From a virus (taxonomy: Duplodnaviria > Heunggongvirae > Uroviricota > Caudoviricetes): a DNA stretch of 18,053 nt. Under the pieces are notes generated by a model, which searched no databases, was not told where the DNA came from, and saw only the letters and a list, made by a program, of their open reading frames with translations. The position numbers and the translations under genes were made by a program. The stretch is from positions 1-18,053 of IMG/VR virus record IMGVR_UViG_2802429227_000006. One strand, given 5' to 3'. Positions 6,983 through 18,053 of the stretch are shown here, in pieces; position 1 is the stretch's first letter, and every line of letters starts with the position of its first letter.

Positions 6983-8236
6983 ATGGCTAACCAATTAGCA
7001 AAAGACCTTGAAATCATGTTCGAAAACTACGTTGAAGGCTTTGATGCCGCCTGCGTAGTTTCCCGTAACGCTAAAAAATTCCGTCCCGGTGATACAGCAA
7101 TGCAGCGAGCCGGTGATGTTCTGTATCGTCCGCAGCATTACCACATGAACATTGAGGAAGGCCTCGATCTCAGCAGCAAAACGCCAACAGCACTGGTTCA
7201 GCGCCTTGTTCCTTCTGTGTTCAAGGAGCCGAAAAACATTCTGTACACTCTGGATGCGCGTGAAATGCGTGACCCTGAGCATAAAACTGAAGCTGGTCGC
7301 GCCGCAGGTATGCGCCTTGCTGCACAGATTGACTCTGACCTGATTTCCATGGTCACGCAGCGTGCTACTAACGTGATCACGATGGCTGACTCAACCACAG
7401 GTACACAGGGCCGTGATTTGTGGAACTGTGCGGCAGGTATTGATGCCACCATGACGGCGATTGGTGTACCACAGGGTATCAACCGCCGCTCTTTCTGGAA
7501 CCCCTTCAACTACAAAGACCTTGCTGGCGAGCTTGGTCACCGTGCCTATGCTCAGGGCGCAACCCTGACAGCATACGAAAAAGCGCAGATCCCTCCGGTT
7601 GCGTCCTTCGATAGCTACAAGACCGATATTTCTGGTCGTGTTCCGAAGGGTACAGCAACTTCCATTACGCTGGCAGCAGCACCTGCGCACAAAGTTGAAG
7701 CGAAAGATGCTAACGATATGCCAGTTGATAACCGACAGGGGACCATTACGGTATCTGCTGAAGGTTTGCAGGTTGGCGATGCGTTTACCATTGCAGGGGT
7801 GAATTCTGTACACCAGATCACCAAAGATACCACCGGGCAGCCGCAGGTATTCCGCGTTCTGGCAGTAAGCGGAACGACAGTAACTATCTCCCCGAAAATT
7901 CTGCCGCCTGACAACGCGGATGTCGCCAGCCGACCATATGCAAACGTTGATGCTAACGCGGCAAATAGCGCAGCAATCACCATTCTCAACAAGAATGCCG
8001 CACCGGCTAACCTGTTCTGGGCTGATGGTTCTGTTGAGCTGATGTACGGCAAACTGGCGTTCCCGACTGGTCAGGGTCCACAGGTAATGACAGCAACCAC
8101 AGAGCAGGGCGCTACGCTGATCATGTCTTACGCCTTCGACCATATCAAAGGCGTAACCACTGCGCGTTTCACCACTCTGTACGGTTGCTCTGTACTGGTT
8201 CCTGAATATACGGGCATCGTTATTGCCGGGCAGTAA
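6983..8236 (+). CDS. Major capsid (coat) protein (P22 gp5-like)
   Basis: 417 aa, RBS GGAG upstream; the segment ...AAITILNKNAAPANLFWADGSVELMYGKL... parallels a P22 coat segment as I recall it; followed by a strong terminator hairpin, as expected for the most abundant structural gene. Confidence 0.9.
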   Translation: MANQLAKDLEIMFENYVEGFDAACVVSRNAKKFRPGDTAMQRAGDVLYRPQHYHMNIEEGLDLSSKTPTALVQRLVPSVFKEPKNILYTLDAREMRDPEHKTEAGRAAGMRLAAQIDSDLISMVTQRATNVITMADSTTGTQGRDLWNCAAGIDATMTAIGVPQGINRRSFWNPFNYKDLAGELGHRAYAQGATLTAYEKAQIPPVASFDSYKTDISGRVPKGTATSITLAAAPAHKVEAKDANDMPVDNRQGTITVSAEGLQVGDAFTIAGVNSVHQITKDTTGQPQVFRVLAVSGTTVTISPKILPPDNADVASRPYANVDANAANSAAITILNKNAAPANLFWADGSVELMYGKLAFPTGQGPQVMTATTEQGATLIMSYAFDHIKGVTTARFTTLYGCSVLVPEYTGIVIAGQ

Positions 8237-13492: not shown

Positions 13493-15489
13493 TGGCTAAA
13501 GCATGGAAAGATGTTATCGCCTCTCCACAGTATCAGGCGTTAGCACCAGAACAAAAAGCGCAGGCTCAGGAGCAATACTTCAATGAAGTCGTTGCCCCGC
13601 AAGCCGGAGAAAATGCAGAGCAGGCCAAGCAAGCTTTCTATGCTGCCTATCCATTGCCATCTGCGCAGCAAGTGGAGACACAGCAACCAGTAGCACAGCA
13701 ACAACCACAGCAAAGTGGATTTATGTCTGATCTTGGCGAAGCAGTAAAAGAGACTGGTCGCGGACTGGTGCAGGCTGGCGTGAACGTGGCAAACATACCC
13801 GCATCAGTTGCCGATGCTGTAACAAGCGCGGCGGCTTGGGCTGGCGGTAAACTCGGCATTGGCGATGGTACATATCAACCAGCGCCACGAGTAACAACGC
13901 AGGGATTAGAGCAGGACTTTGGCCTTCAGCAAGGCGCGCTGACTCCACAAACGACAGAGGGAAGGGTATTTGCTGAAGCATTGCCTTACCTCACTCCTGC
14001 TGGCGTTGAGAGAGCGGCGGCACAGGCACCAACACTAGCTGGTAGAATCGCTCAGGGTGCAACTCGCCTTCTCGCTGAAAACGCAGTCGGGTCACTTGCT
14101 GCAAATAGTGCGAAAGATGATTCGGAAGCCCTCGCCACCGATTTAGGTGTTGGCGTTCTGGCAGGCGGCGCTATTAACGCTGCTGGACGTGGATTAGGTG
14201 CTGCTTATCGTGGCGTTAGTGGTGCTATTGCGCCAGAAGCGCAGCAGGCTATCAGATTTGCAGAGCGTGAAGGAGTTCCTCTGCACACCACAGACCTGTT
14301 ACAACCCACTTCCCGCGTCGGAAAAATGGCGCAGACTACAGCAGAAAATATCCCTCTGGCTGGCACAAGCGGAATGAGAGCAACGCAACAGGAAGCGAGA
14401 AGCCAGTTGGTGCAGAGATTTGCCGATAAATTCGGTGAGTATGATCCAGCGGTTGTTATTGACAGCCTTAAAGCGAAAACATCAGGAATTCGTCGTGCCG
14501 CAGGGAACCGTATTGAGCAAATTCAGAATGCAATGGCAGGAGTCAACATTCAACCTGCACGAGCAATTCAGCAGATTGATACTGAGATATCTAACCTGCA
14601 GAAGCTTGGTAAGGTCGCTGATAACGAGACGATTTCAAAACTTCAGTCATATCGTGATGAGCTTGTTCGCAATGCTGGTCCTGATGGTCCGGTCAATCTG
14701 GATTTGAAGCAATTAAGCGATCTGCGCAGCCAGTTCAGAATGGACGTGAAGGGTGAGCGACCAGTGTTACCAAACCGTTCCGATGCCGCCATTCAGCGCG
14801 TTTACAAGGCAATGACTGACGATATCAATGGTGCCATTGGTCAGAATCTTGGCAACGATACTCTCCGTAAATATCAGCAGGCCAATGCCGTCTACGCTGA
14901 CGAAGCGGAGAAACTAAAGAATACCAGGCTGAAGAATGTTCTCATGAAAGGCGACCTGACGCCGGAAGTTGTCAACAACATGCTATTCAGCAAGAACAAA
15001 TCGGAAATTAAGACTCTGTATAACTCAGTTGGTCGTGTTGGCAGGGCGCAAATGCGCAATGGCATCATTGGAAAGGCGATGGAGAAATCTGGCGGATCCC
15101 CTGACCAGTTCCTTCGGCAGCTTAACATCCTGCAAAACCAGACTGGCATCACATTTAAGGGGCAGGACGCTGCTTATCTGAAAGGATTAAAAAACTACCT
15201 GCAATCCACGCAGCAGGCTGTAAAAGCGGCAGTAACAACACCCACAGGGCAGCAAACTATCCCGTTCATAATTGGGTATGGGACGGCAATGAACCCGGCG
15301 ACAACTGGCGCAGCAGTAAGCTACGGACTTCTTACTCGCGCCTATGAGAGCGAGCCATTCAGAAATGCAATGCTCCGAATGGCAAACACCCCACGCGGAT
15401 CAACAGCGTTTGAGAAAACCATGCAGCAGGCACAAAAGGCAATTAACGCCATGACGCAGGGTGCGAAGTCTGATTCGTTGTCAGAATAG
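13492..15489 (+). CDS. Ejection (internal virion) protein, P22 gp16-like
   Basis: 665 aa; start overlaps the preceding stop (TAATG); last and largest of the three ejection-protein genes before the tailspike. Assigned by synteny and composition. Confidence 0.75.
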   Translation: MAKAWKDVIASPQYQALAPEQKAQAQEQYFNEVVAPQAGENAEQAKQAFYAAYPLPSAQQVETQQPVAQQQPQQSGFMSDLGEAVKETGRGLVQAGVNVANIPASVADAVTSAAAWAGGKLGIGDGTYQPAPRVTTQGLEQDFGLQQGALTPQTTEGRVFAEALPYLTPAGVERAAAQAPTLAGRIAQGATRLLAENAVGSLAANSAKDDSEALATDLGVGVLAGGAINAAGRGLGAAYRGVSGAIAPEAQQAIRFAEREGVPLHTTDLLQPTSRVGKMAQTTAENIPLAGTSGMRATQQEARSQLVQRFADKFGEYDPAVVIDSLKAKTSGIRRAAGNRIEQIQNAMAGVNIQPARAIQQIDTEISNLQKLGKVADNETISKLQSYRDELVRNAGPDGPVNLDLKQLSDLRSQFRMDVKGERPVLPNRSDAAIQRVYKAMTDDINGAIGQNLGNDTLRKYQQANAVYADEAEKLKNTRLKNVLMKGDLTPEVVNNMLFSKNKSEIKTLYNSVGRVGRAQMRNGIIGKAMEKSGGSPDQFLRQLNILQNQTGITFKGQDAAYLKGLKNYLQSTQQAVKAAVTTPTGQQTIPFIIGYGTAMNPATTGAAVSYGLLTRAYESEPFRNAMLRMANTPRGSTAFEKTMQQAQKAINAMTQGAKSDSLSE

Positions 15490-15653
15490 CTTTGCAAACA
15501 CCAGAAATGTGCAAAAACCAAATATATAGAACGCAATATTCAACAGATCTTTTTGCATAGACTCATCTCATAGTTAACAAATCATAACTTACATTAATGC
15601 AATGCCGGGCAAGTTGCATCTTGTTCCGCATTGCTACGTCTGGAGAAAATTAA
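15490..15653 (+). promoter_or_regulatory. Intergenic region upstream of tailspike with TTGCA-type motifs and an inverted repeat; candidate regulatory or RNA-structure region
   Basis: 164-bp AT-rich gap, the largest in the structural operon. Palindrome TTTGCAAA at 15491-15498; TTGCAT at 15553-15558 and 15614-15619; inverted repeat GCAATGC (15599-15605) / GCATTGC (15628-15634); RBS GGAG at 15642-15645. No convincing sigma70 -35/-10 pair found by eye. Confidence 0.3.
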
Positions 15654-18053
15654 ATGACAGACATTACAGCCAATGTTGTAGTGAGTATGCCTTCGCAACT
15701 CTTCACTATGGCGCGTTCTTTTAAAGCAGTAGCCAACGGCAAAATTTATATCGGAAAAATTGACACTGACCCGGTAAGTCCAGAAAACCAGATTCAGGTT
15801 TATGTAGAGAACGAAGACGGCTCTCATGTTCCTGTTTCGCAACCAATCATCATTAACGCTGCTGGATATCCGGTATATAACGGGCAGATTGCCAAATTCG
15901 TAACTGTTCAAGGCCATTCTATGGCTGTATATGATGCATATGGCACTCAGCAGTTCTATTTCCCTAATGTGCTGAAGTATGACCCGGATCAGCTACGGCA
16001 GCAGTTAGAAGACCCGGATGGTGCTAAAAAATATCCCGAATTGCAGATTGCACGATGGCGTGATGACAAAGATGTTCGCGGTTGGGGGGCTATCAGTGAT
16101 GGAATAACTGACGCTACTGAGGCATTCTCTAACGCAGGCTATAGAATGTTTGTTCCTGATGGCGATTTTGCAGTAAATACTCTCGAAGTTGATGTATCTT
16201 CTGCTCGAGGTATTGGGAGGATTGTTGCAGATAATGGCTCTCTTATTTCCGTTTCTCGTCTACTTGAAACTGACAAACTTGCGCAGAGAAAAATGATGGA
16301 ACCTTTTTTTGGTTTTCAGGGAGAAACAAACACAGAAATTTATCCTAATGCCAGAAATGCGTTACAGGGGATCGCATATTGCCGTGTTAATGGCATTGAA
16401 AAACTATTTGTCACACAACGGCCTGTTGGGCCAACCTGGTCGGATAAAGAAAGAGTTCGTATTGTTGAGTTTAATCTTTATGATGATGGAAGGGTAGTAA
16501 ACCATGTTGCGTATTCTCCAGAATTAAACCTTGGGCACGGATTTGATCTTTCTGCAATGGTGGAGAATGGTCAAGTATATTTATATACATCAAGTGTAAC
16601 CAATTCAGGTGAAGATGGGGAGTCTGCAGGCAAAGGGTTTAGTAAAATAACTTGGCGAGGAGCAGGAACTACTCAGTCTGACGTAAAAAGTTATAATGTA
16701 TGGGGGGCTACTGGTAGCGGCCACCCATTTCAAGATTATAATCGTGCAGGAATTGCCATTTCTTCTGACGGTCGTCTTTTAATAATGGTTAATACACCAA
16801 AGAGTGATGCCGCCAAACGAATTGTATTTATATACGATAAAATCTCAATTGATAAACTTGAAGATAAAACATTAGCAACCCCAATGTTTGTATGGGAAAT
16901 GAGCGACTCCCCTTCTGAAGGTGCTTACTCTGTACAAGGTATTGCGTCTGATGGAAGATATATACATATACTTAAGGGAGGCACTAATGCTTTTGGAAAG
17001 CATCATATCTTTACATATGATTTAACAGGTAATTTACTAAGAAAATTAGATATCGATGATGCAAGGTCGCAATATGGGCGCGATGGGTTGCTTAACCATC
17101 CAACTCTTGGGAATCCAGCTAGATTTGAGCCGGAAGGTCTAACTATTCGTGGTGAAGAAATAATTATAAGCTGCATAGAAACATGGAGGGAAGGAGCTAA
17201 TATTGTAAACTGGCGTGGAAGGAGATGGGCTGCATCATCTATTGAGACTTCTGGAATAATTGGTGTCCCTCCATCAAATGGCTCTTATTGGGTGGAAACA
17301 ACCAAGGATGCAAATTCTGGAGACTGGAGTCCTGATACAGATTATGGATGGGGAAGTAGCTATTCTCTTGAGAAAAAGACAATTTACTCTATACGACCAG
17401 CGACTGGTAACAACGATGAGCAGAACCTTAATTCTGGCATAACCAATGCTTCAAGTAATGCAGGTGTAGATGCCGGAGAAAGCGGGCGAAATATATCATT
17501 TAGATGGCGCAATGCTTTTAATATTGTTGCATTTAGCGAACGTCTTGGTGAGTACTTCAACGCTATTATGTATGATAATAGCTCAAGACTAAGAATATAC
17601 GATCAGCAAAACGGTAGTGATAACACTGTTTATGGCTCAATCCAGGCACTATTTACGTCATCATTTAAGGGATTGATTTTAAGGGGTAGGGGGGTATCAG
17701 CATCAAATAGTTCCTATATTAGGTTACATTCATCTGATGATCCAAACTACCCAAATTCGATCATTGAAGGAACAAGAACAGATGGAAGTTTTTCCAGGGA
17801 AACAGATTCAAACGGCACCACTACATTTGCATCGGACTCAGAGCACGAACCGTTGCGTATCAGAAGGGCTTCAGATGGTTTGTTGTTTGCATACGAGAAA
17901 GTAAGAGGTACAACTCTCTTTGGAATTTATAGAGGCTCCGGTTCACCTGAGGGTGTTGTGACCGCACCTCAGGGGTCAATGTACATTGATTATAATGGTG
18001 ATTGGTATCAAAAAAAAACAGGAACAGGAAATACCGGATGGATACTAAAATAA
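15654..18053 (+). CDS. Tailspike protein: P22-type head-binding N-terminal domain fused to a divergent receptor-binding (likely glycan-degrading) C-terminal module
   Basis: 799 aa; N-terminus [41 protein letters not shown]...[15 protein letters not shown]...NVLKYDPDQ is near-identical to the P22 gp9 head-binding domain as I recall it. The remainder does not resemble the P22 beta-helix domain and is markedly AT-rich. Stop TAA at 18051-18053. Confidence 0.9.

What the first reader, a model, noticed from the sequence alone, without database searches (positions are those of the whole stretch)
16000..18053. Mosaic tailspike: conserved head-binding domain joined to a divergent, low-GC receptor-binding module
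The first ~115 codons (15654 to ~16000) encode a textbook P22-family head-binding domain. Downstream the protein has no similarity I can recognise to the P22 endorhamnosidase beta-helix. Base composition also drops sharply: my hand counts of 60-nt samples give about 33% GC at 16801-16860 and 35% at 16141-16200, against about 53% in the coat gene (7801-7860) and about 43% at the tailspike start. That points to a receptor-binding module acquired from a lower-GC source and grafted on near codon 115-130. The distal sequence carries recurring S-x-D-G-R-hydrophobic segments ([25 protein letters not shown]) that loosely recall Asp-box / beta-propeller repeats, so it may be a propeller-type glycosidase or lyase rather than a beta-helix. 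This domain sets host range and could be an uncharacterised depolymerase specificity.
Basis: partly seen in the sequence, partly recalled or inferred. Interest (0 to 1): 0.65.

Follow-up and report, generated by a model that had tools for sequence, protein, structure and literature searches.

The report
Mosaic tailspike with five-bladed propeller
This E. coli P22-like phage tailspike joins the standard tail-attachment domain to a low-GC five-bladed propeller whose closest solved relatives are receptor-binding proteins of Gram-positive phages; the gene is already in databases, but its fold, target and possible enzyme activity are uncharacterised.

Summary
ORF 15654-18053 (799 aa) starts with a P22-family head-binding domain (aa 1-113, Pfam E 1e-66). 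The rest has no sequence match to any solved tailspike beta-helix. Third-position GC is 0.27 after codon ~147. Every 200-codon window of the other genes is at 0.37 or above.

The family keeps Q238, H295, Q428 and E492-x-E494. These line up with the residues that line phi11 Gp45's proposed GlcNAc cavity.

The junction has two layers: most P22-like tailspikes diverge at codon ~113, and CUS-3 and 720R6 at ~150.

The gene is not new. It is 97-99% identical in phages Gally and 683R2 and in 44 of 5,426 complete E. coli genomes. A published survey left its receptor type unassigned ("X3").

Receptor and enzymatic activity remain untested. Verdict: a new variant of known kinds, of moderate interest.

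The parts
15654..15992 (+). Head-binding (tail-attachment) domain, aa 1-113
   Evidence: Pfam PF09008 covers aa 1-113 over the full profile, E 1.2e-66. The Sf6 tailspike 7sg7 aligns over aa 1-118, E 3e-64; P22 structures at E ~1e-50. DNA is 84-92% identical to HK620, Sf6 and epsilon34 over nt 1-339/357 of the gene only.
15993..16073 (+). Helical linker or neck, aa 114-140
   Evidence: The model shows helices at model residues 9-30 (model residue + 114 = protein residue). This stretch is shared with the CUS-3 and 720R6 tailspikes and with 9vvr_A residues 213-278.
16074..16277 (+). Small N-terminal beta domain, aa 141-208, with the motif [19 protein letters not shown]. The second recombination junction (about 16095-16160, codons ~147-170) lies inside it.
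   Evidence: DNA identity to the CUS-3 endosialidase tailspike holds to nt ~450 of the gene, then collapses. The GC3 change point is at codon 147. In 9 of 33 relatives the matching N-terminal motif hits PF12708. This fragment alone gave no Pfam hit.
16278..17399 (+). Five-bladed beta-propeller ('platform'), aa 209-582. Family-conserved residues: Q238 (16365-16367), H295 (16536-16538), Q428 (16935-16937), E492 (17127-17129), E494 (17133-17135).
17190..17360 (+). Trp/Tyr-rich insertion of about 55 aa in blade 5, aa ~513-569
   Evidence: Present in the Gram-negative-type relatives and absent from GA1 gp12. No Pfam match. Its resemblance to a CBM5/12 carbohydrate-binding motif is by eye only.
17400..17858 (+). 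C-terminal all-beta domain (stalk or tower position), aa 583-735
   Evidence: The model has nine strands with pLDDT 84-96. The region is conserved in relatives P0003-P0009. No Pfam hit.
17859..18053 (+). C-terminal cap module, aa 736-799 plus stop codon (...[37 protein letters not shown])
   Evidence: tblastn matches only this ~50-aa end in more than 200 phage records (188 of them Vibrio, also Klebsiella and Acinetobacter) whose tailspikes differ elsewhere. phrog_21909 matches it. pLDDT is below 50 in the monomer model. Most propeller relatives carry a Peptidase_S74 chaperone at this position instead.

Best explanation
The gene encodes a modular tailspike of a P22-like (Lederbergvirus-type) temperate E. 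coli phage.

Aa 1-113 attach the spike to the tail, as in P22 and Sf6. By analogy with those it is presumably a trimer; oligomeric state was not modelled.

A short helical neck and a small beta domain (aa 114-208) act as a reusable adapter. They are partly shared with the CUS-3 endosialidase tailspike.

The host-recognition part (aa ~209-799) is a five-bladed beta-propeller followed by an all-beta stalk and a small C-terminal cap. The propeller belongs to the same superfamily as the 'platform' of the receptor-binding proteins of Gram-positive phages (phi11 Gp45, 80alpha, P68 gp17, NF5 gp18). Its clearest sequence relative is the Bacillus phage GA1 neck appendage gp12.

I infer that each propeller binds a cell-surface glycan in the mouth of its central channel. 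That mouth is ringed by Q238, H295, Q428 and E492/E494, the positions that line the proposed GlcNAc cavity of phi11 Gp45.

The module was joined to the P22-type N-terminus by recombination at the adapter. It came from a gene pool with lower third-position GC than the rest of the phage.

Shown here: the domain map, the fold, the homology, the composition step and the distribution.
Inferred: glycan binding at the central cavity.
Open: the identity of the receptor, and whether the site also cleaves it. I put about 40% on cleavage or modification.
For: - Head-binding domain.
- Junctions: similarity to most relatives ends at nt ~340, to CUS-3 and 720R6 at ~450; GC3 change point at codon 147.
- Composition. 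Close homologs in 59-63% GC hosts have GC3 of 0.65-0.71, so low GC3 is not intrinsic to the protein family.
- Sequence homology: GA1 gp12 by BLASTP, E 1e-54, 27% identity over 451 aa. PF21311 hits 9 of 33 family members, best E 2.5e-5.
- Shared motifs: LQG / GHG / VQG / ExEGL / IYSI occur in the same order in phi11 Gp45. Koc et al. 2016 (PMC4901313) name Gln165, Thr211 and Gln330 as lining the phi11 cavity. These fall in the MQS, GHGT and MQG motifs that align to Q238, H295-G-F and Q428.
- Conservation: H295, Q428, E492 and E494 are kept in 95-100% of 140 diverse relatives.
- Receptor may not be one O-serogroup: Pas et al. 2023 (PMC10408124) put Gally_RBP in subtype X3 of unknown serogroup and report that subtype in prophages of O11, O83, O86 and O102 strains. 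My search finds the module in O83:H1 NRG857C and LF82 and in many other lineages. Gally has no gtr or oac seroconversion genes next to the tailspike.
Against: - The link to phi11 Gp45 is weak by sequence alone. PF21311 scores 16.9 bits against a cut-off of 23.7, and hhalign gives a probability of only 2.9%. It rests on fold plus motif order.
- I had no model coordinates. Placing the conserved residues at the channel mouth comes from strand positions and general propeller topology, not from measured distances.
- No ligand was demonstrated even for phi11 Gp45; GlcNAc soaking failed (PMC4901313).
- All characterised P22-like tailspikes are enzymes (my knowledge: P22, Sf6, HK620, CUS-3). A binding-only spike would be unusual.
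- The serogroup statement in PMC10408124 is worded for PGN829.1 RBP1, which is only 46% identical to this module. Its exact referent is therefore unclear.
Confidence: 0.72

Rival explanations
1. The propeller is a true depolymerase: a glycosidase, lyase, phosphodiesterase or esterase whose active site is the conserved H295 / E492-x-E494 centre. It would cut the O-antigen or capsule so the short tail can reach the outer membrane. This refines the best explanation rather than excluding it.
For: - Every characterised P22-like tailspike is an enzyme (my knowledge).
- Most family members share the layout anchor, N-domain, propeller, stalk, S74 chaperone, which parallels endosialidases.
- His and Glu-x-Glu are near-invariant across 140 relatives from very different hosts, which suits conserved chemistry better than variable ligand contacts.
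- GA1 gp12 occupies the position of phi29 gp12, known as a teichoic-acid-degrading appendage (my knowledge).
- Structural neighbours with the active site in the same central pocket include GH43/32/62/68 enzymes and glutaminyl cyclase.
Against: - No CAZy-type or other enzyme family matches by sequence in Pfam, NCBIfam or PDB.
- The closest solved relatives are described only as binders.
- phi11 Gp45, treated as a binder, carries the same H / Q / ExE motifs, so the motifs do not by themselves indicate catalysis.
Confidence: 0.4
2. It is an ordinary serotype-specific O-antigen tailspike, for example for O83 or O102. Its spread over several serogroups would only reflect prophage history or related sugar epitopes.
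For: - The module occurs in three O83 strains (NRG857C, LF82, and A0 34/86; the O83 assignment of the last is my knowledge) and in one large near-clonal group at 98.9% identity.
- P22-like tailspikes normally target O-antigen (my knowledge).
Against: - The same subtype is reported in O11, O83, O86 and O102 strains, and its authors suggest a non-O-antigen receptor (PMC10408124).
- No O-antigen-modifying genes lie beside the tailspike in Gally.
- I did not serotype the 44 genomes myself.
Confidence: 0.35
3. The distal domain is a diverged right-handed beta-helix like those of P22, Sf6 and HK620, and the propeller model is an artefact.
For: The segment [19 protein letters not shown] resembles the N-terminal cap motif of pectate-lyase-like beta-helices (PF12708 hits in relatives).
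Against: - The model is confident (pLDDT above 90 over most of the propeller).
- Two independent structure searches return only propellers.
- The PF12708 matches cover only ~50 of its 213 positions.
- There is no sequence match to any beta-helix tailspike beyond aa 118.
Confidence: 0.02
4. The low GC does not mark recent import from a low-GC donor. It is the usual composition of fast-exchanging receptor-binding modules circulating among enterobacterial phages.
For: - The CUS-3 endosialidase module also has low GC3 (0.345), and the head-binding part is itself below the phage average (GC 0.44).
- No close low-GC donor was found. The nearest homologs (61-67% identity) sit in 59-63% GC contigs.
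Against: - GC3 of 0.27 lies below every 200-codon window of the other genes.
- It equals that of GA1 gp12 (0.296) in a 38% GC phage.
- The step coincides with the homology breakpoint.
Confidence: 0.4

Closest known systems
Receptor-binding proteins of Gram-positive phages with a five-bladed 'platform' propeller: S. aureus phi11 Gp45 (5efv), 80alpha RBP (6v8i), P68 gp17 (6iab), Brochothrix NF5 gp18 (9m7x); Pfam PF21311
   Same: Five-bladed propeller with the best structural scores of all solved proteins. The same ordered motifs Q / GHG / QG / ExEGL / IYSI. An all-beta region follows the propeller.
   Different: The host is Gram-negative. The N-terminal coiled-coil stem is replaced by a P22 head-binding domain, so it mounts on a podovirus tail hub rather than a siphovirus baseplate. 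It has an extra ~55-aa insertion in blade 5. Sequence identity is 11-17% in the structural alignments, and it scores below the Pfam cut-off. The known ligand of the Staphylococcus proteins, GlcNAc on wall teichoic acid, does not exist in E. coli.
Bacillus phage GA1 gp12 neck appendage protein (precursor)
   Same: Clear sequence homology across the propeller and part of the stalk (E 1e-54). It is the best viral structural match.
   Different: GA1 gp12 has a phi29-type N-terminus and a C-terminal Peptidase_S74 chaperone, and it lacks the blade-5 insertion. Its activity is not characterised in any paper I could find.
P22-family tailspikes: P22 gp9, Sf6 gp14, HK620 gp9
   Same: The N-terminal head-binding domain is nearly identical to that of Sf6. 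The gene sits at the same position, at the end of the virion gene block.
   Different: Their receptor-binding parts are right-handed beta-helix glycosidases. This one is a propeller with no detectable similarity after aa ~118.
CUS-3 / K1F endosialidase tailspikes
   Same: CUS-3 is also a P22-like tailspike carrying a propeller. The DNA is 87% identical over the first 449 nt, including the neck. The overall layout (adapter, propeller with an inserted subdomain, stalk) is analogous.
   Different: Endosialidases have a six-bladed sialidase propeller (PF12217), a beta-barrel and an S74 chaperone. None of these match here, and structural similarity is much weaker (Foldseek E 1e-6, against 1e-12 for the best phage RBP hit).
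Predicted 'n-bladed beta-propeller' depolymerase domains of Klebsiella phages and prophages (PMC12491483)
   Same: A computationally recognised class of propeller receptor-binding domains in Gram-negative phages. It is linked to broader host ranges, and that paper calls the fold's properties in phages unclear.
   Different: That class is defined by fold prediction only. I did not test whether those domains are homologous to this family.

Membership tests
P22-like tailspike (N-terminal anchor) | Head_binding domain PF09008 at the N-terminus | tested here: met
   222.5 bits against a cut-off of 24, aa 1-113 over the full profile. Aligns to Sf6 and P22 structures.
P22/Sf6/HK620-type beta-helix receptor-binding domain | Right-handed parallel beta-helix after the head-binding domain | tested here: not met
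   No sequence match past aa 118. The model and both fold searches give a propeller.
phi11 Gp45 / P68 gp17 platform family (PF21311) | Five-bladed beta-propeller fold closest to these proteins | tested here: met
phi11 Gp45 / P68 gp17 platform family (PF21311) | Score above the Pfam gathering threshold | tested here: not met
   16.9-17.3 bits against 23.7. Nine of 33 relatives match at E up to 0.01, best 2.5e-5. hhalign to Gp45 gives E 0.016, probability 2.9%.
phi11 Gp45 / P68 gp17 platform family (PF21311) | Cavity-lining residues (Gp45 Gln165, Thr211, Gln330) and their motifs in the same order | tested here: met
   MQS / GHGT / MQG / EAEGL / IYSI in Gp45 against LQG / GHGF / VQG / EPEGL / IYSI here, with matching order and similar spacing.
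phi11 Gp45 / P68 gp17 platform family (PF21311) | Stem-platform-tower architecture with two repeated tower subdomains | tested here: inconclusive
   The stem is replaced by the head-binding domain. A C-terminal all-beta domain exists, but I could not test its equivalence to the tower without coordinates.
phi11 Gp45 / P68 gp17 platform family (PF21311) | Binding of GlcNAc-decorated cell-wall polymer | not testable with these tools
   Needs binding assays.
GA1 gp12-type appendage / propeller tailspike family (377 clusters) | Significant full-domain sequence similarity | tested here: met
   BLASTP E 1e-54. The family profile finds 377 clusters at E up to 1e-3 and 150 at E up to 1e-30.
GA1 gp12-type appendage / propeller tailspike family (377 clusters) | C-terminal Peptidase_S74 intramolecular chaperone | tested here: not met
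   Present in 20 of 33 relatives and in GA1 gp12. Absent here; a different ~55-aa cap takes its place.
Endosialidase tailspikes (CUS-3, K1F) | Six-bladed sialidase propeller (PF12217), beta-barrel (PF12195) and Asp-box motifs | tested here: not met
   No such Pfam hits at E up to 1. Similarity to CUS-3 ends at aa ~150. The S-x-D-G-R segments lack the T-W of an Asp-box.
Five-bladed glycoside hydrolases (GH43/32/62/68) | Sequence-family match and an Asp/Glu catalytic set in the central pocket | tested here: inconclusive

The most novel reading that the evidence does not exclude
This module would stand for an uncharacterised class of phage host-recognition propellers shared between Gram-positive and Gram-negative phages, in one of two forms. 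(a) It is a new depolymerase type with a His / Glu-x-Glu centre. (b) It is the first binding-only tailspike on a P22-like podovirus. In either form its receptor would be common to several E. coli O-serogroups (O83, O102, O11, O86), for example a HexNAc-containing determinant, ECA or a capsule.
Probability: 0.35. Interest if true: 0.7.

Novelty: new variant of a known kind. Interest (0 to 1): 0.5.

Why it matters
The module sets the host range of temperate phages carried by clinically relevant E. coli. These include adherent-invasive LF82 and NRG857C, and many human clinical isolates that share one 98.9%-identical allele (likely ST405, which I did not type).

It shows that a recognition fold solved so far only in Gram-positive phages is also used on the classic P22 tail.

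If the receptor is shared across serogroups, the spike could serve as a broader-range targeting or typing reagent than the usual serotype-specific beta-helix spikes.

If the His / Glu-x-Glu centre is catalytic, it would define a new depolymerase family of 377 sequence clusters.

None of this changes the established picture that tailspikes evolve by module swapping.

Tried and rejected
- **PDB search with the whole-family profile.** It was dominated by the S74 chaperone of the relatives and said little about this protein.
- **hhalign of the family against phi11 Gp45.** Only weak (probability 2.9%). I used it for motif registration, not as proof.
- **Pfam on four isolated fragments at E up to 10.** The adapter, the insertion, the stalk and the C-terminal cap gave nothing. 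My by-eye idea that the blade-5 insertion is a CBM5/12-like module is therefore unsupported.
- **NCBIfam.** No hit.
- **Scan of one genome per species with a family alignment.** I have no taxonomic map of the family.
- **IMG/VR scan.** Returned only near-identical loci and one 67% relative.
- **Promoter and terminator scan of 15300-15800.** Nothing found.
- **Serotyping the 44 E. coli genomes myself.** Considered and dropped as too costly with these tools. I rely on strain names and PMC10408124.
- **Literature searches for a five-bladed propeller on a P22-like or O-antigen tailspike.** No such description found, though the library lacks most subscription journals.
- **Model coordinates.** Not available to me, so I could not measure distances between the conserved residues.
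Full report
**1. What is in the sequence**

The finding lies in one intact ORF, 15654-18053 on the + strand, 799 aa, whose stop codon ends the window. It follows a block of P22-like virion genes: terminase, portal, scaffold, coat, and injection proteins up to 15489. This block is 94-96% identical to those of E. coli phages 720R6, CUS-3, Kapi1, Huey and others.

The tailspike gene is 99.0% identical to that of prophage-derived phage vB_EcoP-683R2 and 97.0% to that of phage Gally, the P22-like prophage of adherent-invasive E. coli LF82. The distal 1,954 nt occur at 97-99% identity in 44 of 5,426 complete E. coli genomes. All copies are chromosomal and most are annotated only as 'phage head-binding domain-containing protein' (the three most divergent as 'phage head protein'). 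The genomes include O83:H1 NRG857C, LF82 and A0 34/86.

**2. The observation**

The N-terminal 113 residues are a full-length Pfam Head_binding domain, E 1.2e-66. They align over aa 1-118 with the solved Sf6 tailspike, and with P22.

Beyond aa ~118, no solved tailspike matches by sequence. The exception is a short linker, aa 113-175, which matches residues 213-278 of 9vvr.

But 60-nt samples exaggerate the effect. Over whole regions GC is 0.501 upstream of the gene, 0.438 in the head-binding part and 0.409 in the rest.

The signal is in third codon positions:
- GC3 is 0.278 for 16002-18053, against 0.435-0.605 in the 13 other genes.
- Every 200-codon window of the distal part (0.235-0.325) lies below every one of 90 such windows from other genes (0.37-0.60).
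- The best change point within the gene is codon 147, on a plateau from 120 to 170. GC3 goes from 0.415 to 0.273, and 63 of 2,000 permutations do as well.

**3. The junction has two layers**

DNA similarity to HK620, Sf6, epsilon34 and most other P22-like tailspikes stops at nt 339-357 of the gene, about codon 113-119. Similarity to the CUS-3 endosialidase tailspike and to 720R6 continues to nt ~449, about codon 150.

The segment between these points is a helical neck plus the start of a small beta domain. Parts of it recur in tailspikes with other anchors. It therefore acts as a shared adapter at which modules are exchanged. The GC3 step coincides with the second boundary.

**4. What the distal part is**

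I aligned aa 115-799 with 32 homologs and obtained an AlphaFold2 model with mean pLDDT 84.8 and pTM 0.79. Only the last ~60 residues are unreliable. The model has about twenty strands in five four-stranded sheets (protein aa ~209-582), followed by an all-beta domain.

Structure searches agree with each other:
- Foldseek against the PDB returns NF5, 80alpha, phi11 and P68 receptor-binding proteins as its nine best hits (E 3e-12 to 4e-10). Endosialidases follow at 1e-6.
- Foldseek against viral models puts the Bacillus phage GA-1 neck appendage first (E 4e-46).

By sequence, GA1 gp12 is an unambiguous homolog: BLASTP E 1e-54, 27% identity over 451 residues. The E. coli protein carries an extra ~55-residue Trp/Tyr-rich insertion in blade 5.

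The Pfam model built on the phi11-type platform (PF21311) matches this protein only below threshold, 16.9 bits against 23.7. It matches 9 of 33 family members at E up to 0.01.

**5. The conserved centre**

A profile of the propeller finds 377 clusters (at 50% identity) among 1.84 billion representatives.

Over 140 well-covered relatives the most conserved non-glycine, non-proline residues are H295 (99%), E492 (100%), E494 (98%), Q428 (95%) and Q238 (89%). In the model these sit at or just before the innermost strand of blades 2, 5, 5, 4 and 1. By standard propeller topology, that places them around one mouth of the central channel. This is an inference, because I had no coordinates.

phi11 Gp45 has the same motifs in the same order (MQS, GHGT, MQG, EAEGL, IYSI). 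Its authors name Gln165, Thr211 and Gln330, which lie in three of these motifs, as lining the cavity where they modelled GlcNAc. That cavity overlays the active site of glutaminyl cyclase (PMC4901313).

They are real repeats of the blade, but they are not sialidase Asp-boxes.

**6. How it most likely works**

Established by homology to P22 and Sf6: aa 1-113 dock the spike on the tail.

Inferred: the propellers bind a surface glycan at the conserved cavity.

Whether they also cleave it is open.
- For catalysis: all characterised P22-like spikes are enzymes. Most relatives share the endosialidase-like layout with stalk and S74 chaperone. A His / Glu-x-Glu set is invariant across very different hosts.
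- Against: there is no enzyme-family match. The solved relatives are described as binders. phi11 Gp45 carries the same motifs.
- I put about 40% on cleavage or modification.

The receptor is unknown. Pas et al. 2023 list Gally's spike as subtype X3 with no serogroup. They report that subtype in prophages of O11, O83, O86 and O102 strains and suggest a non-O-antigen receptor. Their sentence names PGN829.1 RBP1, which is only 46% identical to this module, so I treat it with caution. Gally has no O-antigen-modifying genes next to the spike.

**7. Origin of the module**

Low GC3 is not a property of the protein family. Homologs at 61-67% identity in 59-63% GC contigs have GC3 of 0.65-0.71. GA1 gp12 has 0.296, and the CUS-3 endosialidase module 0.345.

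Import from a lower-GC gene pool is therefore plausible. No donor was found, and low-GC receptor modules are common in these phages.

**8. Novelty and verdict**

The gene itself is already deposited and catalogued. Module swapping at the head-binding boundary is textbook, and CUS-3 already shows a propeller on a P22-like spike.

What I did not find described is a P22-type tailspike carrying a phi11/GA1-type five-bladed propeller, or any functional data for this family in Gram-negative phages. Other E. coli head-binding spikes with the same propeller also exist (P0017, P0038).

I file it as a new variant of known kinds, with interest 0.5.

Noticed in passing
window 17886-18050 (aa ~745-799): The last ~55 residues (…[37 protein letters not shown]) match the C-termini of tailspikes in more than 200 phage records (188 Vibrio, also Klebsiella, Acinetobacter and IME11) whose middle parts are unrelated. 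The monomer model is unconfident here. Most propeller relatives have a Peptidase_S74 chaperone at this position instead. It may be an alternative trimerisation or folding cap.
   Followed up: partly
window 15490-15653: Only 164 nt separate the gp16-like injection gene from the tailspike. Phage Gally has three genes there, including the Mnt repressor (L004 4547-5854). No sigma-70-like promoter or intrinsic terminator was found in 15300-15800.
   Followed up: partly
L004 (phage Gally) 8401-9401: Between the Gally tailspike and the integrase there is only a 95-aa hypothetical ORF. No gtrABC or O-acetyltransferase seroconversion genes of the kind P22 and Sf6 carry at this position.
   Followed up: no
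window 17190-17360 (aa ~513-569): A Trp/Tyr-rich insertion of about 55 aa in blade 5 is conserved in the Gram-negative-type relatives and absent from GA1 gp12. It looks carbohydrate-binding by eye but has no Pfam match.
   Followed up: partly
proteins P0017, P0038, P0035: Other E. coli tailspikes combine a head-binding domain with a 24-45% identical propeller of the same family; the full-length ones, P0017 and P0038, end in an S74 chaperone. P0017 stands for 264 sequences. P22-like phages therefore carry at least three subtypes of this propeller.
   Followed up: no
E. coli genomes H128, H129, H142, H153: Four complete genomes hold two copies of the receptor-binding module, which implies two prophages with the same specificity in one cell.
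   Followed up: no
window 15654-16000: The head-binding part itself has GC 0.44, below the ~0.50 of the other virion genes. The compositional shift therefore begins before the receptor-binding module.
   Followed up: partly
L013/L014 (contigs carrying P0003): The closest distant relative (61% identity) is the last tail gene of a siphovirus-type prophage in a ~63% GC bacterium. In one variant a GDSL lipase/esterase gene sits just downstream. The same propeller module is thus used on long-tailed phages too.
   Followed up: no
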